From contig CADACC010000003.1 of the NCBI GenBank assembly GCA_902786275.1, forward strand, positions 1 to 63,200: a stretch of DNA of 63,200 nt, in the 5' to 3' direction. Positions within the stretch are counted from its first letter, which is position 1. Each line of letters opens with the position of its first letter. This stretch comes from an uncultured Erysipelotrichaceae bacterium (GTDB taxonomy: Bacteria > Bacillota_I > Bacilli_A > RF39 > UBA660). Made by a program: the position numbers and the translations under genes. The notes under the pieces are model-generated. The model had not been told where the DNA came from. It worked only from the letters and a program-made list of their open reading frames with translations, and ran no database searches. Below, piece by piece: positions 28,118 to 62,281 of this stretch.

Positions 28118-28942
28118 ATGGTTATTGTTACTCAAAGAGAGAAACTATTTGATTTACTTAGAAAATATATAAACGATGATTATTCTATTGGGTTTCATGG
28201 TGTTGCTAAATATAGATTAGATGGTAAAACACATACAAGCATTTCATACGTTATTGAAAACGTTATGAAAGATGGTCTTAATATTAATGATCAAAGGACT
28301 TTATTAGGTACAACACAGTTTCTTGATGATAATTATTTTACAGATGAACAAGATTTTGTTACGAGGTATAAGTATGGAGATGTTAAAGAGTATATAGTTG
28401 TTGCTCTTCCTAAATTTATAACTAACAGTAAAGGCGACAAACTATATTTAGGTCATCCCACATATAAGGAAACTAACCAACCTCAAGGTTATCAAATTAC
28501 ATCACTGGCTGATTTATTGTTACCAATTTATTCTTCTGAACAATCAATACTTCCTACAGAGTTTATTTTAGGAAAACTTGATATAGGAAGTGCATGTAGA
28601 TTTAAACCTAATCCTAATCATATGTCTTTAAATGGTACCGGTAATAAGGTATCAGATGAATTTTTTAATAAATGTTTATCTATGTTAAATAAGGCTAATA
28701 ATTTTTATGGGGTAGATGAATCATTTCAAGTAACTGATAAAGAAGATGCATTATTAAATGTTGAAATCATAGAAGAAGAATATGATAGATTACAAAAATT
28801 AACTGGTTCAGAATTGATGGAAAAAGAAGATAAACTTCAAAAATTAGATTATCAAACTAGAATGGTAATCACAGCTTATCCAAACGCAATTAGAAATACA
28901 TTTGATGAATATATAAAAGAAAATAATAATAAAAAAAGATAA
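28118..28942 (+). CDS. Hypothetical protein; its N-terminal half shares a short motif set with the central region of the HD protein at 10203..11864
   Basis: YSIGFHG / NVMKDGL / KEYIVV versus YHSIGF / GILKHGI / EKFVF in ORF 10203; coiled-coil-like acidic C-terminus. Confidence 0.4.
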   Translation: MVIVTQREKLFDLLRKYINDDYSIGFHGVAKYRLDGKTHTSISYVIENVMKDGLNINDQRTLLGTTQFLDDNYFTDEQDFVTRYKYGDVKEYIVVALPKFITNSKGDKLYLGHPTYKETNQPQGYQITSLADLLLPIYSSEQSILPTEFILGKLDIGSACRFKPNPNHMSLNGTGNKVSDEFFNKCLSMLNKANNFYGVDESFQVTDKEDALLNVEIIEEEYDRLQKLTGSELMEKEDKLQKLDYQTRMVITAYPNAIRNTFDEYIKENNNKKR

Positions 28943-28947
28943 ATATT

Positions 28948-28979
28948 AGTACAAGTTAAATAAAACTTGTACTTTTTTA
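28948..28979 (+). terminator. Rho-independent terminator
   Basis: AGTACAAGTT aaataa AACTTGTACT followed by TTTTTT. Confidence 0.8.
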
Positions 28980-28986
28980 TTCATTA

Positions 28987-28995
28987 TGTTATAAT
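28987..28995 (+). promoter_or_regulatory. Extended -10 element (TGTTATAAT) of rplS
   Basis: TGTTATAAT sits 82 nt upstream of the rplS ATG and leaves an ~75-nt leader. Confidence 0.5.
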
Positions 28996-29076
28996 CTTTT
29001 TGACCCAAAAAATGTAATCCGCCTAATGTTATATTAATGATTACAGGTTAATATATTTTATAGAAAGGAAATTGTT

Positions 29077-29418
29077 ATGGCTAATTTAGTTGATAAGATT
29101 AATGAAAAGCACATAAGAAAAGACATTCCTGAATTTCAAGTTGGTGACACAGTTCGTGTTGATGTATGGGTTAAAGAAGGAAAAAAAGAAAGAATTCAAG
29201 CATTTGAAGGCCTAGTAATCGGTAAGAAAAATGGCGGCGTATCTGAAACTTTTTCAGTTCGTAAAAAATCAAGTGGTATTGGAGTTACAAGAATTTTCCC
29301 AGTAAACTCTCCAACAATCGATAAGATCACTGTTATTAAAAAGGGTAGTGTTCGTCGTGCTAAACTTAACTTCATCAAGAAGATGACAAAAGAATATAAA
29401 GTTAAAGAAAGAAATTAA
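29077..29418 (+). CDS. rplS: 50S ribosomal protein L19
   Basis: FQVGDTVRVDVWVKEGKKERIQAFEGLVI...GIGVTRIFPVNSP. Confidence 0.95.
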   Translation: MANLVDKINEKHIRKDIPEFQVGDTVRVDVWVKEGKKERIQAFEGLVIGKKNGGVSETFSVRKKSSGIGVTRIFPVNSPTIDKITVIKKGSVRRAKLNFIKKMTKEYKVKERN

Positions 29419-29440
29419 GGTTTAGTCCTTAATTTTTTCT
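29413..29440 (+). terminator. Weak hairpin + T-run after rplS
   Basis: ATTAAGG tttagt CCTTAAT followed by TTTTTT. Confidence 0.5.
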
Positions 29441-29473
29441 TTAATAAAAATGAAAGTGTGATTAATAGTGGAT

Positions 29474-55632: not shown

Positions 55633-57657
55633 ATGAAGAAAGTTGTTATAGTGGAATCACCTGCTAAAAGTAAAACAATAGAGAAGTATCTAGGTAGTGA
55701 GTTTGAAGTTGTATCAAGCAAAGGTCACATTCGTGACCTTGCTACTTCTGGTAAATTTGGACTAGGAGTAGATATTGATCATGATTTTACTCCTAAATAT
55801 ATTATTATTAAGGGTAAGAATAAAGATGTTACTCAATTAAAGAAGCTAACTGATAAAGCTGACATGGTTTATCTTGCAACAGATCCAGACCGTGAAGGAG
55901 AAGCTATTAGTTGGCATCTTTTTGATGAATTAAAAATACCAGAGGATAAATATGAAAGAGTAGTTTTTAATGAAATCACTAAAGATGTTGTTAAAGATGC
56001 AATTAATAATCCTCGTAAAATTGATATGGATTTAGTTCATAGTCAAGAAACTAGAAGAATTTTAGATAGAATTATTGGTTTTAGATTATCTAAATTAATG
56101 CAATCTAAAACTGGTGGTAAATCTGCTGGTCGTGTTCAAAGTGTTGCTTTAAAGATTATTGTAGATAGGGAAAGAGAAATTGATGCATTTAATCCTGAAG
56201 AATACTGGACTATTAAAGCATCATTTGGTTCTTTTGAAGCCACTTTAGAAAAATATCATGGTAAAAATATAGAAATTAAAAATGAAGTAGAAGCAAATGA
56301 AATACTTAATAAGCTTTCAAATTCATTTGATATTGATGATATTCAAGAACAAGAGAAAAATAAAAAGAGTAAAGAAGTATTTAGAACTTCTACTTTACAA
56401 CAAGCTGCATATAACAAATATGGTTTTGATTCATCTAAAACAATGCGTATAGCTCAAAAGTTATATGAAGGTATTGATTTAGGTGATGAGACAGTTGGTT
56501 TAATTACATATATGAGAACAGACTCAGTTAGAATATCACCTGAATTTACATCATCTGCTTTTGGTTATATTAAGGGTAAATATGGTCCTGAATATGTAGG
56601 TGTTGTAAAACAAGGTAAGAAACAAGAAAACATTCAAGATGCTCATGAAGGTATTAGACCTACAAGCATAAATAGAAATCCTGAAGATATTAAAACTTAT
56701 CTTTCACCAGATGAATATAAATTATATAAATTGATTTATTATAGAGCTTTAGCATCTTTAATGGCTGATTCAAAATATTTATCTACATCTGTTAGTTTAG
56801 ATAATAATGGATATTTATTTAAAGCAAATGGATCAGTAATGACATTTGATGGATATTTAAAAGTTTATAGTGATTTTGAAGATAAAGAAGATGTTGTTTT
56901 ACCTGATTTTAAAAATTATAAGAGTAAAACTTTAGTTTGTGATGAAATAGAAAAAGAACAACACTTTACTAAAGCACCAGCTAGATATACAGAGTCTTCT
57001 TTAATTAAAGAACTTGAAGCTTTAGGAATTGGTAGACCATCTACTTATGCAACTATTATGCAAACTATTAAAGCTAGAGGTTATGTTACTTTAGAGGAAA
57101 AAAGATTTGTTCCAACAAAGATTGGTTTTGAAACAAATGATAAACTTCAAGAGTATTTTGATTCTTTAATTAATGTAGAATATACTGCTAATATGGAAAA
57201 AGACTTAGATGAAATAGCTGATGATAAAAAAGATTCAGTTAAAGTATTAAAAGATTTTTACAGTAGTTTTGAACCTCTACTTGAAAAAGCTTTTAATGAG
57301 ATGGAGAAAAAGCAAGCAGAAGAAACTGGAGAGATGTGTCCTAACTGTGGAAGCCCACTAGTTATTAGAAATGGACGTTTTGGTGAATTTGTTGCGTGTT
57401 CAAATTATCCAACATGTAAATATATTAAACAAGAAGAAAGAGAAATTAAAACAGTTTGTAAATGCCCAAAATGTGGTGGAGATATAGTTGAAAAAAGAAC
57501 AAGAAAAGGTAAAATTTTCTATGGATGTTCAAATTATCCTAAATGTGATACTGCTTTTTGGAATAAACCTATTGATAGAAAATGTCCAGAGTGTGGGAAC
57601 TTGCTAACTGAAAAGGGTAAGAAAATAGTTTGTTCATCATGTGATTATAGTGAATAA
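55633..57657 (+). CDS. topA: DNA topoisomerase I
   Basis: TOPRIM VVIVESPAKSKTIEKYLG, ATDPDREGEAISWH, active-site region GLITYMRTDS, three C4 zinc ribbons at the C-terminus. Confidence 0.95.
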   Translation: MKKVVIVESPAKSKTIEKYLGSEFEVVSSKGHIRDLATSGKFGLGVDIDHDFTPKYIIIKGKNKDVTQLKKLTDKADMVYLATDPDREGEAISWHLFDELKIPEDKYERVVFNEITKDVVKDAINNPRKIDMDLVHSQETRRILDRIIGFRLSKLMQSKTGGKSAGRVQSVALKIIVDREREIDAFNPEEYWTIKASFGSFEATLEKYHGKNIEIKNEVEANEILNKLSNSFDIDDIQEQEKNKKSKEVFRTSTLQQAAYNKYGFDSSKTMRIAQKLYEGIDLGDETVGLITYMRTDSVRISPEFTSSAFGYIKGKYGPEYVGVVKQGKKQENIQDAHEGIRPTSINRNPEDIKTYLSPDEYKLYKLIYYRALASLMADSKYLSTSVSLDNNGYLFKANGSVMTFDGYLKVYSDFEDKEDVVLPDFKNYKSKTLVCDEIEKEQHFTKAPARYTESSLIKELEALGIGRPSTYATIMQTIKARGYVTLEEKRFVPTKIGFETNDKLQEYFDSLINVEYTANMEKDLDEIADDKKDSVKVLKDFYSSFEPLLEKAFNEMEKKQAEETGEMCPNCGSPLVIRNGRFGEFVACSNYPTCKYIKQEEREIKTVCKCPKCGGDIVEKRTRKGKIFYGCSNYPKCDTAFWNKPIDRKCPECGNLLTEKGKKIVCSSCDYSE

Positions 57658-57662
57658 AAAAA

Positions 57663-57690
57663 GTACATCAAAAAATTGATGTATTTTTTT
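57663..57690. terminator. Bidirectional Rho-independent terminator (topA on +; candidate toxin mRNA on -)
   Basis: TACATCAA aaaa TTGATGTA flanked by an A-run on the left and a T-run on the right. Confidence 0.8.
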
Positions 57691-57698
57691 ATTCAATT

Positions 57699-57707
57699 TG
57701 ATATAAT
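57699..57707 (+). promoter_or_regulatory. Extended -10 element (TGATATAAT) of the candidate antitoxin sRNA
   Basis: TGATATAAT sits 9 nt after the topA terminator T-run. Confidence 0.4.
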
Positions 57708-57713
57708 TAATAT

Positions 57714-57786
57714 GTAAGTGTTACCTAGTCGGGTGGCGCCTACTTGTGTTTCAACGCCACACACTAAGTGCTGGCGTCATTTTTAT
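57714..57786 (+). ncRNA. Candidate ~70-nt antisense sRNA (type I antitoxin) ending in its own intrinsic terminator
   Basis: Starts ~7 nt after the TGATATAAT element. Hairpin ACGCCAcaC acuaa GUGcUGGCGU (57754-57777) followed by CAUUUUUAU. Fully complementary to the 3' UTR/stop region of the minus-strand sORF transcript. Ends are approximate. Confidence 0.3.
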
Positions 57787-57851
57787 GTTAATCGTAATAT
57801 AACTATTATTAACATAATTATTATGATATAAAGTATCGCACTTCTTGTCAT
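57783..57851 (-). CDS. Candidate type I toxin: 22-aa hydrophobic peptide MTRSAILYIIIIMLIIVILRLT
   Basis: ATG at 57851 is preceded by AAGGGAG at 8-nt spacing. A single TM-like core is flanked by Arg residues; stop TAA at 57785-57783. Not in the supplied ORF track because it is too short. Confidence 0.35.
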   Translation of the reverse strand: MTRSAILYIIIIMLIIVILRLT

Positions 57852-57951
57852 AACTCCAACTCCCTTCGAATACCTCCCCATGGTTATTCACGAATACAAA
57901 AGTATTTAGTAGATATTGAAGTAGATCCACAGACGTAGGTAACAAGTCTCT

Positions 57952-57979
57952 ATTATATTAATCAAGATTTAGATTTCAA
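57952..57979 (-). promoter_or_regulatory. Near-consensus sigma-A promoter on the minus strand (TTGAAA-16 nt-TATAAT) for the candidate toxin mRNA
   Basis: The reverse complement of 57974-57979 is TTGAAA and of 57952-57957 is TATAAT. The predicted start falls at the 5' arm of the long-range stem (~57943-57946). Confidence 0.45.
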
Positions 57980-58064
57980 TTGTTTCGACATACGTTCTAC
58001 TTATTCGACTACATCAAGAATAAAGTATTTACATTTTTATAGTGTAAATGAGTGTAAAATTGCA

Positions 58065-58070
58065 TATAAT
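58065..58070 (+). promoter_or_regulatory. Possible -10 box (TATAAT) of ppdK
   Basis: TGCATATAAT sits 64 nt upstream of the ppdK ATG; tandem AGTGTAAA octamers lie just upstream. Confidence 0.35.
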
Positions 58071-58133
58071 TTATTGCCTTAAAATATGGTATTAGTTATA
58101 ATAATTTTTGTGAAAAATAGGAGGAATAAAAAT

Positions 58134-60770
58134 ATGACTAAATATGTATACTTATTTAGTGAAGGTAATGCTGATATGAGAAACCTTCTTGGTGGTAAAG
58201 GTGCTAACCTTGCTGAAATGACTAACATTGGTCTTCCAGTACCACAAGGTTTTACAATCACTACTGAAGCTTGTACTAAGTATTACGAAGATGGAAGAGA
58301 AATTAACTCTGAAATCCAAGAACAAATTAACGAATACATCGTTAAGATGGAAGAAATTACAGGAAAGAAATTTGGAGATGTTGAAAATCCATTATTAGTA
58401 TCAGTTAGATCTGGTGCTAGAGCATCAATGCCCGGTATGATGGATACTATTTTAAACTTAGGTTTAAATGAAGAAGTAGTTGAATCAATTGCTAAACAAT
58501 CTAATAATCCAAGATGGGCATGGGATTGTTATAGAAGATTCATTCAAATGTATTCTGACGTAGTTATGGAAGTTGGAAAGAAATACTTTGAAGAATTAAT
58601 TGATAAAATGAAAGAAGCTAAGGGAGTTAAACAAGACGTTGAACTTTCTGCTGAAGATTTAAAAGAATTAGCTAATCAATTTAAAGCTGAATATAAAGAA
58701 AAAATAGGAACAGACTTCCCAACTGATCCTAAAGAACAATTAATGGGAGCTATTAAAGCTGTATTTAGATCTTGGGATAATCCTAGAGCTAACGTATATA
58801 GACGTGATAACGATATTCCATATTCATGGGGAACTGCTGTAAATGTTCAATCTATGGCATTTGGTAATATGGGAGATGACTGTGGTACAGGTGTTGCCTT
58901 TACTCGTGACCCTGCAACAGGTGAAAAAGGTTTGTTTGGTGAATTCTTAACTAATGCACAAGGTGAAGATGTTGTTGCTGGTGTTAGAACTCCAATGCAC
59001 ATAACTGAAATGGAAGAAAAATTCCCAGAAGCATTTAAACAATTTAAAGAAGTATGTCAAACTCTTGAATCTCATTATAGAGACATGCAAGATATGGAAT
59101 TTACAGTTGAACATGGTAAACTTTATATGCTTCAAACAAGAAATGGTAAAAGAACTGCTAAAGCAGCTTTAAAAATAGCTTGCGATTTAGTAGATGAAGG
59201 AATGCGTAGTGAAGAAGAAGCTGTAGCTATGATTGATCCAAGAAACTTAGATACACTTCTACATCCACAATTTGATGCAACAGCACTTAAAAATGCATCA
59301 GTTTTAGGTAAAGGTTTAGGAGCATCTCCTGGAGCTGCTTGTGGACAAATCGTATTTACTGCTGAAGATGCTGTTAAATGGCATGAAGATGGTAAAAAAG
59401 TTGTTTTAGTTAGACTTGAAACTTCACCAGAAGATATTACTGGTATGAAAGCATCTCAAGGTATTTTAACTGTTCGTGGCGGTATGACATCACACGCTGC
59501 AGTAGTTGCTCGTGGTATGGGTACTTGCTGTGTATCTGGTTGTGGTGATATCGCAATGGATGAAGCTAATAAACAATTTACACTTAATGGTAAAACATTC
59601 CATGAAGGTGATGAAATTTCTATTGATGGTACAACTGGTAATATTTATGATGGATTAGTTCCAACAGTTGATGCAACTATCTCTGGTGAATTTGGTCGTG
59701 TTATGGAATGGGCTGATAAATTTAGAACTCTAAAGGTTAGAACTAATGCTGATACTCCAAGAGATGCTAAAAAAGCTCATGAACTAGGAGCTGAAGGTAT
59801 AGGCTTATGTAGAACAGAACACATGTTCTTCGAAGAAGATAGAATTGCTGCATTTAGAGAAATGATTTGTGCAGATACTGTTGAAGAAAGAGAAGCTGCA
59901 CTTGATAAAATTCTTCCATATCAACAAGGTGATTTTGAAGAATTATATGAAGCACTTGAAGGTGATGGAGTAGTAGTTAGATACTTAGACCCACCTCTAC
60001 ATGAATTCGTTCCAACTGAAGAAGCTGATATTGAAAAGCTTGCTAAAGCTCAAGGTAAATCAGTTGAAAGAATTAAAGAAATTATTGCATCACTTCATGA
60101 ATTTAACCCAATGATGGGTCATAGAGGATGTCGTTTAGCTGTTACTTATCCAGAAATTGCTAAGATGCAAACTAAAGCTGTTATTAGAGCTGCTATCAAC
60201 GTTTCTAAAAAACATCCTGATTGGAATATAGTTCCAGAAATTATGATTCCTTTAACAGGAGAAGTTAAAGAACTTAAGTATGTTAAAGATATTGTAGTAG
60301 CAACTGCTGATGAAGAAATTAAAGCTGCTGGTGTTGAAATGAAATACCAAGTTGGTACTATGATTGAAATTCCAAGAGCTGCTTTAACTGCTGATGAAAT
60401 TGCTAAAGAAGCTGAATTCTTCTCATTTGGTACTAATGATTTAACTCAAATGACATTTGGTTTCTCAAGAGATGATGCTGGTAAATTCTTACCTGCATAC
60501 TATGAAAAGAAAATCTATGAAGAAGATCCATTTAAAACACTTGATCAAAAAGGTGTTGGTCAATTAATTAAAATGGCTGCTGAAAAAGGTAAAGCTACTA
60601 GACCTAATATTCATTTAGGAGTATGTGGTGAAACTGGTGGAGATCCTAAATCTATCGAATTCTATAATGCTGTTGGACTAGATTATGTATCTTGTTCTCC
60701 ATTTAGAGTTCCAGTTGCTAGACTTGCTGCTGCACAAGCCGCAATAAAGTCTGGAACTAAAAAGAACTAG
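58134..60770 (+). CDS. ppdK: Pyruvate, phosphate dikinase
   Basis: MTKYVYLFSEGNADMRNLLGGKGANLAEM; phospho-His region GGMTSHAAVVARGMG; C-terminal PEP-utilising TIM barrel (GLCRTEHMF, FFSFGTNDLTQ, VCGE). AGGAGG SD 7 nt before the ATG at 58134. Confidence 0.95.
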   Translation: MTKYVYLFSEGNADMRNLLGGKGANLAEMTNIGLPVPQGFTITTEACTKYYEDGREINSEIQEQINEYIVKMEEITGKKFGDVENPLLVSVRSGARASMPGMMDTILNLGLNEEVVESIAKQSNNPRWAWDCYRRFIQMYSDVVMEVGKKYFEELIDKMKEAKGVKQDVELSAEDLKELANQFKAEYKEKIGTDFPTDPKEQLMGAIKAVFRSWDNPRANVYRRDNDIPYSWGTAVNVQSMAFGNMGDDCGTGVAFTRDPATGEKGLFGEFLTNAQGEDVVAGVRTPMHITEMEEKFPEAFKQFKEVCQTLESHYRDMQDMEFTVEHGKLYMLQTRNGKRTAKAALKIACDLVDEGMRSEEEAVAMIDPRNLDTLLHPQFDATALKNASVLGKGLGASPGAACGQIVFTAEDAVKWHEDGKKVVLVRLETSPEDITGMKASQGILTVRGGMTSHAAVVARGMGTCCVSGCGDIAMDEANKQFTLNGKTFHEGDEISIDGTTGNIYDGLVPTVDATISGEFGRVMEWADKFRTLKVRTNADTPRDAKKAHELGAEGIGLCRTEHMFFEEDRIAAFREMICADTVEEREAALDKILPYQQGDFEELYEALEGDGVVVRYLDPPLHEFVPTEEADIEKLAKAQGKSVERIKEIIASLHEFNPMMGHRGCRLAVTYPEIAKMQTKAVIRAAINVSKKHPDWNIVPEIMIPLTGEVKELKYVKDIVVATADEEIKAAGVEMKYQVGTMIEIPRAALTADEIAKEAEFFSFGTNDLTQMTFGFSRDDAGKFLPAYYEKKIYEEDPFKTLDQKGVGQLIKMAAEKGKATRPNIHLGVCGETGGDPKSIEFYNAVGLDYVSCSPFRVPVARLAAAQAAIKSGTKKN

Positions 60771-60908: not shown

Positions 60909-60942
60909 AATGTTGTGCGATAGGGAAATGGAGGAATTGAAT

Positions 60943-61416
60943 ATGCGAATAATGTATATGAAACCAGAACTAAACGATTTATCTCAAGGATCTAGAATTG
61001 CTTTTGCAAGACAATTTAGATTTATGTCTCAAGATGAAGTATCAGATAAATTAGGATTAACTGGTGAATGTAAAAGAAGAACTATGACAAGATATGAAAG
61101 AGGAAATAGAAATCCTAAAGATAAAAGATTAATGGAAATAGCAAACATATTGAATATTAATGTTAATTCTATAAGAGAATATGATTTTAGAAAGCAGATT
61201 GATTTATTTTATATATTAATGTGGATGGAAGAAATAATACCTAAATATCAAATTGATTTATCTAAAATTCCAAATATAAATGAAGAGAATATTATTATTT
61301 TCAAAAAATTTATGGATGATTGGGATATGATGAGAGAAAAACGAAATAAGCGAGAAATATCATATGAAGAATATATTGAATGGAAATTAAATTATGAGGT
61401 AAAAGCTTATGAGTGA
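60943..61416 (+). CDS. XRE-like HTH DNA-binding protein (mobile-element regulator)
   Basis: GSRIAFARQFRFMSQDEVSDKLGL...MTRYERGNRNP HTH pattern; GGAGG SD before the ATG at 60943. Confidence 0.6.
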   Translation: MRIMYMKPELNDLSQGSRIAFARQFRFMSQDEVSDKLGLTGECKRRTMTRYERGNRNPKDKRLMEIANILNINVNSIREYDFRKQIDLFYILMWMEEIIPKYQIDLSKIPNINEENIIIFKKFMDDWDMMREKRNKREISYEEYIEWKLNYEVKAYE

Positions 61417-62281
61417 TATTAAAAAGATTAAGTTAGAAGATATAGATACTTTTGAAAATCATCCATTCAAGGTAAATAATGATGAATCGCTTCAAGAATT
61501 AGCAGAAAGTATTAGAATTAACGGTTTATTAAATCCATTAACAGTTAGAAAAAAAGAAAATGGTAGATATGAATTAATATCTGGTCATAGAAGAAAATTA
61601 GCTATGGAATTAAATGGAATGAAAGAAGCTAATGCTTATATAAAAGAGTTATCAAATGATGAAGCTGTTATTGAAATGGTAGATTCTAATATGTATAGAG
61701 ATAAAATTTTACCATCAGAGAAAGCTTTTGCATATAAAATGAAATTAGATGCAATGAAACATCAAGGAAAGAAAATTTCCCCTAAGGGAACAAAGTCACT
61801 GTCCATTAATGAAATAGATGATACTAAAACACAAATATATAGATATGTAAGATTAACAAATCTTATACCTGAACTACTAAAATTAGTAGATGATACTGTT
61901 TTAAAAGATAAGAGAACTGTTCTAACAATGGGATTAAAACCAGCTGTAGAATTATCCTATTTAAATAAGGAAGAACAAAAATTAGTATATATGGGAATTA
62001 CATATGAAGATGTAACTCCTAGTCATGGACAAGCTATAAAAATTAGAGAACTTTCTAAGAATAAAAAATTAACTTTTGATTCTTTGGAAGAAATACTATG
62101 TCAGCAAAAAGGAAATCAAAAAGAAAGAATATCATTTAATAAAGATAAAATTGAAAAAGCGCTTCCAAGTGAATTGTTGAAAAGAGATAAAAGATATATA
62201 GAACAATATATAATTAATGCAATTGAAAGTTATAAGAAACAAGAACTTGAAAGGGGTGATGCGTATGAACTAGATATGTAG
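61409..62281 (+). CDS. ParB/Srx-like N-terminal nuclease domain protein
   Basis: NHPFKV...SIRINGLLNPLTVRKKENGRYELISGHRRKLA, the canonical ParB N-terminal domain; 8-nt overlap with the HTH gene. Confidence 0.8.
   Translation: MSDIKKIKLEDIDTFENHPFKVNNDESLQELAESIRINGLLNPLTVRKKENGRYELISGHRRKLAMELNGMKEANAYIKELSNDEAVIEMVDSNMYRDKILPSEKAFAYKMKLDAMKHQGKKISPKGTKSLSINEIDDTKTQIYRYVRLTNLIPELLKLVDDTVLKDKRTVLTMGLKPAVELSYLNKEEQKLVYMGITYEDVTPSHGQAIKIRELSKNKKLTFDSLEEILCQQKGNQKERISFNKDKIEKALPSELLKRDKRYIEQYIINAIESYKKQELERGDAYELDM

What the first reader, a model, noticed from the sequence alone, without database searches (positions are those of the whole stretch)
57660..57985. Candidate type I toxin-antitoxin locus between topA and ppdK
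This intergenic region is locally GC-enriched and highly structured.
Minus strand:
- It has a near-consensus promoter (TTGAAA-16-TATAAT, 57979-57952).
- The predicted 5' end (GUUACCUAcGUCuGUGGauCUACUU) pairs over ~21 bp with the distal 3' UTR (AAGUAGgcgCCACccGACUAGGUAAC, 57745-57720).
- A strong SD (AAGGGAG) sits 8 nt before an ATG at 57851.
- The ORF encodes MTRSAILYIIIIMLIIVILRLT, a 22-aa single-helix hydrophobic peptide flanked by Arg.
- UUAUGA around the start codon can pair with UCAUAA inside the ORF.
- The transcript can end at the bidirectional topA terminator.
Plus strand:
- A TGATATAAT element (57699) would launch a ~70-nt RNA.
- That RNA ends in its own GC-rich hairpin + U-run (57754-57786).
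- It is perfectly complementary to the toxin mRNA 3' UTR and stop-codon region.
Convergent 3'-overlapping toxin mRNA and antitoxin sRNA, a tiny hydrophobic peptide and a 5'-3' fold-back are the hallmarks of txpA/RatA-, bsrG/SR4- and hok/Sok-type type I systems. The antitoxin target coincides with the fold-back partner, so sRNA binding and 5'-3' closure would compete.
Basis: partly seen in the sequence, partly recalled or inferred. Interest (0 to 1): 0.7.

Follow-up and report, generated by a model that had tools for sequence, protein, structure and literature searches.

The report
New type I toxin-antitoxin-like family

Summary

**Comparative evidence**
- I found 20 full copies of the same ~340-bp module in related uncultured low-GC Bacilli, counting the window but not six further contigs whose copy is identical to it, plus 2 copies whose peptide gene is deleted. 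One locus has two copies in tandem.
- The copies sit in at least seven different chromosomal settings, next to topA/ppdK, leuS, polC/polA, dus, efp, greA and a Mur-ligase gene.
- 19 of the 20 full copies keep a 22-codon ORF with a Shine-Dalgarno sequence (SD). The codon changes look like coding sequence (pN/pS 0.45).

**RNA structure**
- The 5'-3' helix of 22 base pairs is paired in 93.5% of cells and shows compensatory changes.
- Both promoters sit at fixed spacing from the conserved RNA ends.
- The plus-strand RNA (two hairpins and a U-run) is conserved.

**Known families**
- Rfam, Pfam and NCBIfam give no match.
- Searches of phage, plasmid and viral sequence collections give no match.

**Verdict**
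- Transcription of both strands, toxicity of the peptide and neutralisation by the RNA were not tested here.

The parts
57980..58012 (-). Conserved block just upstream of the -35 of the peptide-mRNA promoter. It contains GTCGAA repeats about 21 nt apart; in other members it reads GTTTTGACATGTTTTGTCGAA. It could be an UP-element-like sequence or an operator. Its role is unknown.
   Evidence: It travels with the module into unrelated genomic contexts.
57952..57979 (-). Promoter of the peptide (toxin-candidate) mRNA, TTGAAA-16-TATAAT. The predicted start is about 57946-57943.
   Evidence: One search gives 11 of 12 matches. All 16 members checked score 9-11 of 12, and the -10 ends exactly 8 nt before the 5' arm in 14 of 16.
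57919..57943 (-). 5' arm of the long-distance 5'-3' helix (GUUACCUACGUCUGUGGAUCUACUU). It closely resembles the first 32 nt of the antisense RNA.
   Evidence: Minimum-free-energy folds. RNAalifold keeps 22 pairs. Cells paired are 93.5-95%, 6-7 pairs show changes on both sides, 0 of 500 shuffles reach the observed paired percentage or covariation score, and slid controls give 28-54%.
57910..57920 (-). Anti-SD segment (UUCAAUAUCUA). It pairs with positions -4 to -14 upstream of the AUG.
   Evidence: A duplex forms in all 15 members. In a fixed register, 8-10 of 11 positions pair in 14 of 15. Cells paired are 77.6% against 60.4% in shuffles, and 9 of 11 pairs change on both sides.
57855..57866 (-). 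Ribosome-binding region: SD AAGGGAG at 57866-57860, plus the spacer that pairs with the anti-SD.
   Evidence: An SD-like motif lies upstream of the ATG in every member (core GGAG 4-12 nt away by reading; three members have only AAGG).
57783..57851 (-). sORF of 22 codons plus TAA: MTRSAILYIIIIMLIIVILRLT. It would form one hydrophobic helix flanked by basic residues at positions 3 and 20.
   Evidence: 19 of 20 full copies have 22 codons. There are 15 distinct 22-residue peptides plus one 26-residue variant. Variable sites by codon position are 13/11/19 and pN/pS is 0.45.
57754..57777 (.). GC-rich hairpin. On the plus strand it is the intrinsic terminator of the antisense RNA, followed by UUUUU at 57780-57784. 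On the minus strand it is a 3'-UTR hairpin whose loop is complementary to the terminator loop.
   Evidence: Covariation: one stem pair is GC in 7 and AU in 7 members. Every member has a run of at least 4 U after the hairpin.
57720..57745 (-). 3' arm of the long-distance helix. It lies wholly inside the region complementary to the antisense RNA.
57699..57707 (+). Extended -10 promoter (TGaTATAAT) of the antisense RNA.
   Evidence: A -10 box ends exactly 6 nt before the invariant GTAAGTG in 17 of 18 members, and most also have a TTGnnn -35.
57714..57785 (+). Antisense small RNA (antitoxin candidate) of about 71 nt. It has hairpin 1 (57714-57745), a linker, the terminator hairpin and a U-run. It is complementary to the peptide mRNA's 3' UTR and stop codon.
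   Evidence: Fold. A 16-member alignment and consensus fold. It is retained in the two loci that lost the peptide gene (L090, L095).
57657..57690 (.). AT-rich hairpin flanked by an A-run and a T-run. It is the topA terminator and the probable terminator of the minus-strand mRNA in this genome. It is not part of the mobile module.
   Evidence: inverted repeat I4. Other members have different or no obvious terminators at this position.

Best explanation
This is a chromosomal type I toxin-antitoxin-like module of a new sequence family.

**Peptide mRNA (minus strand).** A near-consensus promoter makes an mRNA of about 230-290 nt for a 22-residue single-helix membrane peptide. Two helices hold the full-length mRNA in a closed, poorly translatable fold.
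- A 22-bp helix joins its first 25 nt to the distal 3' UTR.
- The next 11 nt (the anti-SD) pair with the ribosome-binding region. The start codon is also paired.

**Antisense RNA (plus strand).** A convergent promoter makes a 71-nt RNA that ends at its own terminator. It is fully complementary to the 3' UTR and the stop codon, including the 3' arm of the long helix.

**Proposed mechanism (inferred, not shown).**
1. Binding starts by loop-loop contact between the RNA's terminator loop and the complementary 3'-UTR hairpin loop. That hairpin is the only part of the target not buried in the long helix.
2. Pairing then spreads and displaces the mRNA's 5' end.
3. The result is a 71-bp duplex for RNase III and a freed 5' end open to 5' exonuclease.
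4. The peptide mRNA is therefore destroyed rather than translated. Folding predicts that blocking the 3' 71 nt does not free the SD.

**Shown here:** the sequence features, their conservation and covariation, and the family's dispersal. **Not shown:** transcription, toxicity and the RNase steps.
For: **Features and fold.** Features are confirmed. Fold z-scores are -5.3 and -7.3.

**Family size and spread.**
- Twenty full and two truncated copies were found (window counted, its six identical contigs not). They came from sampling upstream of ppdK and from one metagenome pattern scan in which all 13 hits were true homologues.
- Flanking genes are housekeeping and differ between loci.
- L110 carries two tandem copies.

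**Coding signal.** 22 codons in 19 of 20 full copies, an SD-like motif upstream of the ATG in every member, third-position excess (13/11/19 variable sites), pN/pS 0.45, and Arg20 coded by CGA or AGA.

**Long 5'-3' helix.** 93.5-95% of cells are paired, and 6-7 pairs carry compensatory changes, including in columns my search pattern did not constrain. None of 500 shuffles reaches the observed paired percentage or covariation score (3 of 500 reach the count of pairs changed on both sides). Slid controls give 28-54%. Many G-U pairs are valid only on this strand as RNA.

**Anti-SD helix.** 77.6% against 60.4% paired, with 9 of 11 pairs covarying. The AUG has an unpaired probability of 0.12 or less in 12 of 15 members.

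**Antisense RNA.** Both hairpins and the U-run are conserved, and the terminator stem covaries. Both promoters sit at fixed distance from the conserved RNA ends.

**Decay pattern.** L090 and L095 lost the promoter, SD and 5' half of the ORF but kept the antisense RNA region.

**Fit to the class.** The architecture matches the class definition in PMC8594479. It also matches the 3'-overlapping B. subtilis systems in PMC6562991 and PMC3834814.
Against: - No expression data exist for either strand. There is no toxicity or rescue test.
- SD sequestration is only partial in thermodynamic predictions. The unpaired probability ranges from 0.00 to 0.75 across members.
- The shuffle control for the anti-SD duplex is significant at 0.05 or better in only 5 of 15 single sequences.
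- No conserved terminator for the peptide mRNA is part of the module.
- Position 20 of the peptide is not always basic. It is Q, C or E in some members.
- Only one copy lies in the 63-kb window.
- Thirteen members were found with a pattern anchored on the antisense RNA. 'Peptide gene never without the RNA' is therefore not a test. The transitions allowed in that pattern also bias the hairpin-1 pair counts.
- The predicted fold gives no obvious route by which the peptide would ever be translated.
Confidence: 0.7

Rival explanations
1. This is a conserved small membrane protein gene under cis-antisense control that is not a toxin. Examples would be a 22-residue modulator of a transporter or a membrane complex. 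The antisense RNA would simply tune its level.
For: The coding signature and the RNA structures show a functional peptide and regulation. They do not show toxicity. Flanking genes are housekeeping genes, not prophage or plasmid genes. Many small membrane proteins are non-toxic (general knowledge).
Against: A housekeeping small protein would be expected to stay at one syntenic site beside a partner gene. This module carries its own two promoters and sits in at least seven unrelated contexts. It occurs in tandem, is patchy among sister species, and repeatedly loses the peptide gene while keeping the RNA. The double lock on translation (long helix plus anti-SD) is typical of mRNAs whose product must be kept off (PMC8594479).
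Confidence: 0.2
2. The plus-strand small RNA is the real gene, a trans-acting regulator. The minus-strand transcript would be only its sponge or a by-product, and the sORF would not be translated.
For: The small RNA is the best conserved part and persists alone in L090 and L095.
Against: The ORF length is fixed at 22 codons. An SD sits at a suitable distance. Synonymous codon turnover and a conserved amino-acid core (IIIxLIxVIL) are seen across 15 distinct 22-residue peptides. In L090 the small RNA's own promoter looks decayed.
Confidence: 0.06
3. This is a miniature inverted-repeat mobile element or other selfish DNA repeat. The 'arms' would be terminal inverted repeats acting at the DNA level.
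For: It is dispersed, about 340 bp long, and has an imperfect inverted repeat about 200 bp apart (I1). Flanks are exchanged between loci L100, L107 and L103.
Against: Conservation extends beyond both arms into two promoters. The arms keep pairing through G-U wobbles, which would be A-C mismatches on the other strand or in DNA. A coding ORF lies inside. No hits in phage, plasmid or viral collections and no transposase nearby.
Confidence: 0.03

Closest known systems
B. subtilis 3'-overlapping type I systems (txpA/RatA, bsrG/SR4, bsrE/SR5, yonT/SR6)
   Same: [quoted passage not shown]
- The antitoxin acts mainly by promoting RNase III-initiated decay.
- The SD of bsrG lies in a double-stranded region.
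- First contact in bsrG/SR4 uses the antitoxin's terminator loop (PMC6562991, PMC3834814). The geometry here allows the same contact.
   Different: - No sequence relationship: Pfam and NCBIfam give no match for the peptide, and Rfam gives none for the RNA.
- The peptide has 22 residues, against 38 for BsrG and 58 for YonT. It has no charged C-terminal tail (BsrG length and tail from my knowledge; YonT length).
- The antisense RNA is about 71 nt, against about 100 nt for SR6 and longer for SR4 and RatA (my knowledge).
- These copies lie between housekeeping genes, not in prophage-like elements.
- The antitoxin target is itself one arm of a 5'-3' closing helix.
hok/Sok (plasmid R1) and aapA1/IsoA1 (Helicobacter pylori)
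   Same: The full-length toxin mRNA is locked by a long-distance 5'-3' interaction together with SD sequestration. Local 5' hairpins can form before the 3' end is made (PMC8594479; PMC6733600 abstract). Here the freed 5' arm also folds into a local hairpin.
   Different: - In those systems the antisense RNA overlaps the 5' part of the mRNA, and 3' trimming activates translation (established knowledge).
- Here the antisense RNA covers the 3' arm.
- Here removal or blocking of the 3' 71 nt is not predicted to free the SD.
- There is no leader ORF of the mok type.
Ibs/Sib of E. coli
   Same: Very short hydrophobic toxins (18-19 residues) in several chromosomal copies, some of them in tandem (established knowledge). 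Tandem copies are seen here in L110.
   Different: Sib RNAs are antisense to the whole ibs ORF and RBS. This family is found in Gram-positive-type low-GC genomes. No sequence similarity was detected.
Fst/RNAII (par of pAD1, Enterococcus) and SprA1/SprA1as (Staphylococcus)
   Same: Convergent transcripts meet at the 3' end, and a 5' structure limits translation of a peptide of about 30 residues (established knowledge; family overview in PMC8594479).
   Different: Fst regulation also needs 5' direct-repeat pairing. No such repeats are found here, and there is no Fst-family match.

Membership tests
Type I toxin-antitoxin systems (class, as defined in PMC8594479) | Small protein of 20-60 residues, usually one hydrophobic helix | tested here: met
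   The peptide has 22 residues with about 16 consecutive hydrophobic residues. It is conserved in 19 of 20 full copies.
Type I toxin-antitoxin systems (class) | Short toxin mRNA (150-400 nt) with SD sequestration and/or a 5'-3' long-distance interaction | tested here: met
   The predicted mRNA is 230-290 nt. The 22-bp long helix and the 11-bp anti-SD helix both covary.
Type I toxin-antitoxin systems (class) | Cis-encoded antisense RNA of 60-200 nt with its own promoter and terminator, complementary to the toxin mRNA | tested here: met
   By sequence only: a 71-nt unit, a -10 box 6 nt upstream in 17 of 18 members, and a terminator hairpin plus U-run in all. Transcription was not observed.
Type I toxin-antitoxin systems (class) | Expression of the protein is toxic, and the RNA prevents its synthesis | not testable with these tools
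   This needs inducible expression with and without the small RNA. Only indirect hints exist: the peptide gene is lost while the RNA is kept in L090 and L095.
Known type I toxin families in Pfam and NCBIfam (from my knowledge these include Hok, Fst, Ldr, TisB and Ibs) | Profile match of the peptide | tested here: not met
   The only hit at E up to 10, for the window peptide and all 12 aligned members, is a chance-level DUF2116 match.
Known antitoxin RNA families in Rfam (13 type I families according to PMC8594479) | Covariance-model match of the antisense RNA | tested here: not met
   No match at gathering score in the whole window. Only chance-level matches at E up to 10 in 57550-58200.
Housekeeping structured RNAs (6S, SRP, tmRNA, RNase P, riboswitches) | Rfam or ARAGORN match | tested here: not met
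Miniature inverted-repeat transposable elements | Terminal inverted repeats at the element ends, no coding capacity, DNA-level complementarity | tested here: not met
   Conservation runs past the repeats into the promoters. G-U pairs are strand-specific. An ORF with a coding signature lies inside. Target-site duplications were not examined.

The most novel reading that the evidence does not exclude
The first 25 nt of the peptide mRNA are a built-in copy of the antitoxin's 5' end. The mRNA would then carry its own 'cis-antitoxin', which occupies the antitoxin's target site. The trans RNA would work by strand displacement started at a kissing hairpin. That step would switch the mRNA from a nuclease-protected closed circle to an open, degradable form without ever exposing the SD. 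In addition, paralogous copies would act as recombination sites that reshuffle these small genomes. L100, L107 and L103 share flanks pairwise, and the topA-ppdK gap is hypervariable.
Probability: 0.3. Interest if true: 0.65.

Novelty: new member of a known kind. Interest (0 to 1): 0.5.

Why it matters
Type I systems are hard to find because the peptides fall below gene-calling limits. A recent paper states they are known from only three phyla (PMC12390103).

It includes a peptide near the lower size limit for such toxins, two covarying regulatory helices and a conserved antisense RNA. It occurs in uncultured, reduced-genome gut and rumen Bacilli, where almost nothing is known about RNA regulation.

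It offers:
- a ready alignment for a covariance model to annotate these metagenome-assembled genomes;
- a compact RNA switch to test, in which 5'-end mimicry competes with antisense pairing;
- a marker for a rearrangement hot spot.

If the peptide is not toxic, it is still a new conserved small membrane protein under antisense control.

Tried and rejected
1. **Anchoring on TopA in genome contigs.** The module seemed absent from the closest relatives. This was a false negative. The interval downstream of topA is variable and the module is linked to ppdK. Sampling PpdK homologues recovered it.
2. **tblastn hit in L033 (MIRLAILFL...).** It lies inside a 536-aa ORF in another frame, so it is spurious.
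3. **Remnant of genes lost between topA and ppdK.** tblastn of the intervening genes of relatives against the window found nothing in 57658-58133.
4. **Known RNA or protein family.** Rfam, Pfam and NCBIfam were negative.
5. **Phage or plasmid origin.** blastn and tblastn against phages and plasmids, and three viral-contig scans, were negative. The tblastn runs may have been blinded by the low-complexity filter.
6. **Second copy in the window or in other fetched loci.** A 26-mer search, blastn and an nhmmer profile were negative, except for the tandem pair in L110.
8. **Genetic code 4.** Rejected: TGA ends 6 of 66 ORFs, several with ATGA overlaps.
9. **The 526-bp 'gap' at 28942-29468.** It holds a 113-aa ORF that looks like ribosomal protein L19 by my reading.
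10. **Open-frame counting.** It is weak evidence here, because two other frames are also often open in this AT-rich stretch.

Full report
**The observation.** The window is a 26.4% GC stretch that is 94% coding. It uses genetic code 11, and 64 of its 66 large ORFs are on the plus strand. TopA-identical contigs come only from metagenome assemblies. The nearest named records are uncultured 'Bacilli', 'Tenericutes' or 'Mollicutes' genomes assembled from metagenomes. topA (55633-57657) and ppdK (58134-60770) are confirmed by Pfam. The 476-bp spacer between them is the largest non-coding stretch in the window. The minus-strand RNA folds far better than shuffles, with z-scores of -5.3 and -7.3, and the proposed 5'-3' pairing is in the minimum-free-energy structure. 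No Rfam family matches, and there are no tRNA or tmRNA genes.

**Finding relatives.** The first attempt anchored on TopA and suggested the element was absent from relatives. That result was misleading. The interval downstream of topA is a hot spot that carries different genes in each species. Anchoring on PpdK homologues of 93-97% identity recovered the element directly upstream of ppdK in six loci.
- Full copies are in L087, L089, L091, L108 and L109. L110 has two tandem copies.
- L090 has a truncated copy.
- L088, L092, L093 and L094 have none.

From the first five independent copies I derived a degenerate pattern for the antisense-RNA 5' region. One metagenome scan returned 13 loci, and every one contained the element. 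Twelve carried the whole module. One (L095) carried only the antisense half. Flanking genes differ between loci and are housekeeping genes: leuS, polC and polA, dus, efp, greA, a Mur-ligase gene, and topA/ppdK. Phage, plasmid and viral collections gave nothing. Together with the window, the family therefore has 20 full copies, not counting the six TopA-anchored contigs L001-L006 whose spacer is identical to the window's, and 2 truncated copies. It is chromosomal, dispersed, patchy among sister species and sometimes tandem.

**The peptide gene.** Nineteen of the 20 full copies have an ORF of exactly 22 codons, and L104 has 26.
- There are 15 distinct 22-residue peptides.
- They share the pattern M-x-[KR]-x4-[LYFW]-[IV]-I-[IE]-I-[ML]-L-I-x-[VI]-[IV]-L-[RK, rarely Q/C/E]-L-[ITV].
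- An SD-like motif (GGAG, AGGAG or GGGAG; only AAGG in three members) lies upstream of the ATG in every member.
- Variable sites by codon position are 13/11/19, and mean pN/pS is 0.45.
- Arg20 is coded by CGA or AGA, and Leu by TTA, TTG or CTA.
- The 32-aa extension from the ATG at 57881 is not conserved.

No Pfam or NCBIfam family matches any member.

**The peptide mRNA's structure.** RNAalifold on 15 transcripts keeps the long-distance helix.
- Over 19 sequences, four of them independent of my search pattern, its 22 pairs are paired in 93.5% of cells.
- Seven pairs change on both sides.
- None of 500 shuffles reaches the observed paired percentage or covariation score. Three of 500 reach the count of pairs changed on both sides.
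- Sliding the partner by 1-3 columns drops pairing to 28-50%.
- Compensatory changes occur in columns the pattern left free.
- In the divergent L108 subtype the middle of both arms is rewritten (GGGUUAUGCCUAC with GUAGGCAUAACCC) while pairing is kept.
- The many G-U pairs mean the helix exists as RNA on this strand, not as a DNA repeat.

The 11 nt that follow the 5' arm pair with positions -4 to -14 before the AUG, covering the SD.
- In a fixed register, 14 of 15 members pair at 8-10 of 11 positions.
- Cells paired are 77.6% against 60.4% in shuffles.
- 9 of 11 pairs change on both sides.

The AUG is also paired in most members. The full-length mRNA therefore looks translationally closed, as described for type I toxin mRNAs (PMC8594479).

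**The antisense RNA.** In 17 of 18 copies a -10 box ends exactly 6 nt before an invariant GTAAGTG. Most copies also have a TTGnnn -35 box. The RNA has a 12-bp hairpin rich in G-U pairs, a short linker, a GC-rich hairpin whose stem covaries (GC in 7 members, AU in 7) and a U-run. Its 3' end overlaps the stop codon of the sORF. The hairpin-1 counts are biased, because my pattern allowed only transitions there. The pattern-independent copies still keep the hairpin (sequences).

The peptide mRNA's promoter is equally regular. It scores 9-11 of 12 matches, and the -10 box ends 8 nt before the 5' arm in 14 of 16 copies.

The peptide mRNA's 5' arm is a near copy of the antisense RNA's first 32 nt. 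The profile search even cross-hits between them.

**Likely mechanism (inferred).** In the closed mRNA, only the 3'-UTR hairpin at 57754-57777 within the target is free. Its loop is complementary to the antisense RNA's terminator loop. The initial contact in bsrG/SR4 likewise involves the antitoxin's terminator loop and a loop of the toxin mRNA (PMC3834814).
1. Pairing would start at that loop and then invade the long helix.
2. This would give a 71-bp duplex.
3. The 3'-overlapping B. subtilis systems are cleaved by RNase III in this configuration (PMC6562991).
4. Folding with the last 71 nt blocked leaves the SD just as sequestered.

Antisense binding should therefore lead to decay, not activation. 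How the peptide ever gets translated is not explained by these folds.

**Evolutionary behaviour.** L110 has two divergent copies in tandem. L090 and L095 have lost the promoter, 5' UTR and first half of the ORF but keep the antisense unit, and in L090 that unit's promoter also looks decayed. L100 shares its left flank with L107 and its right flank with L103 at about 94% identity, so copies lie at rearrangement breakpoints. These behaviours fit a selfish toxin-antitoxin-like module better than a housekeeping small protein. They are still indirect evidence.

**Comparison and verdict.** The module meets every sequence-level criterion of the type I class and fails membership of every filed family (see the membership table). 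In mechanism it combines two known layouts:
- the 3'-overlap layout of txpA/RatA and bsrG/SR4;
- the 5'-3' closed mRNA of hok and aapA1.

I rate it a new member of a known kind. I put 0.7 on the type I toxin-antitoxin reading. About 0.2 goes to a non-toxic, antisense-regulated membrane peptide, and the small remainder to the other rivals. Interest is moderate (0.5). It is not surprising in kind, but it is an unusually well-supported new family in an unstudied lineage, with a testable RNA-mimicry switch.

Noticed in passing
window 57980-58012 (minus strand); same position in L089, L091, L096-L101, L105, L107: A conserved block about 35 nt long lies upstream of the -35 of the peptide-mRNA promoter. 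Its consensus is GTTTTGACATGTTTTGTCGAA, with phased T-tracts and TCGAA repeats about 10 or 21 nt apart. It moves with the module into unrelated contexts. It could be an UP element or a regulator binding site.
   Followed up: partly
window 58028-58059; also L087-L091 and L108-L110 upstream of ppdK: A palindrome, TTTACA-N9-TGTAAA, is followed by a further TGTAAAA about 75-105 nt upstream of the ppdK start. It is conserved even in relatives that lack the module (L088, L090). It is probably an operator for ppdK regulation.
   Followed up: no
window 57658-58133 versus L007, L020, L031, L032, L038, L039, L049, L071/L087, L088-L090: The interval from topA to ppdK is a hypervariable hot spot. Distant relatives carry two to five genes there, including a XerC-like recombinase in L049 and L032 and thymidine kinase in L049. 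Close relatives carry an ABC-type ATPase, an HTH/CYTH protein or unknown ORFs. The window has none of these.
   Followed up: partly
L110 420-655 and 757-993: Two divergent copies of the module lie in tandem, in the same orientation, between topA and ppdK. The intergenic region is 848 bp.
   Followed up: yes
L090 2758-2865; L095 3396-3517: These are orphan copies. The antisense-RNA unit and the last 11-14 codons of the sORF remain, but the promoter, 5' UTR, SD and start codon are deleted. In L090 the stop codon is also mutated and the small-RNA promoter looks decayed.
   Followed up: yes
L100 versus L107 and L103/L099: L100 shares its left flank (dus) with L107 and its right flank (a zinc-ribbon protein gene) with L103 and L099, each at about 94% identity. 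The join lies inside the module. This suggests recombination between paralogous copies, or possibly assembly chimeras.
   Followed up: partly
window 57872-57885 (minus strand): A conserved 5'-UTR motif, AACCAGGGGGUUU (AACCAUGGGGAGGU in the window), lies between the anti-SD and the SD. It is nearly invariant in the family. None of the helices I tested explains it.
   Followed up: no
window, whole: Gene orientation is extremely biased: 64 of 66 ORFs of at least 120 aa are on the plus strand. The sORF is one of the very few minus-strand genes. No tRNA or Rfam-recognised RNA lies in the 63 kb.
   Followed up: partly
window 60910-62281: An HTH_3 protein (168 aa) and a protein with a ParB N-terminal domain (290 aa) lie directly downstream of ppdK. 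The pair is conserved in L090. Its function here is unknown.
   Followed up: no
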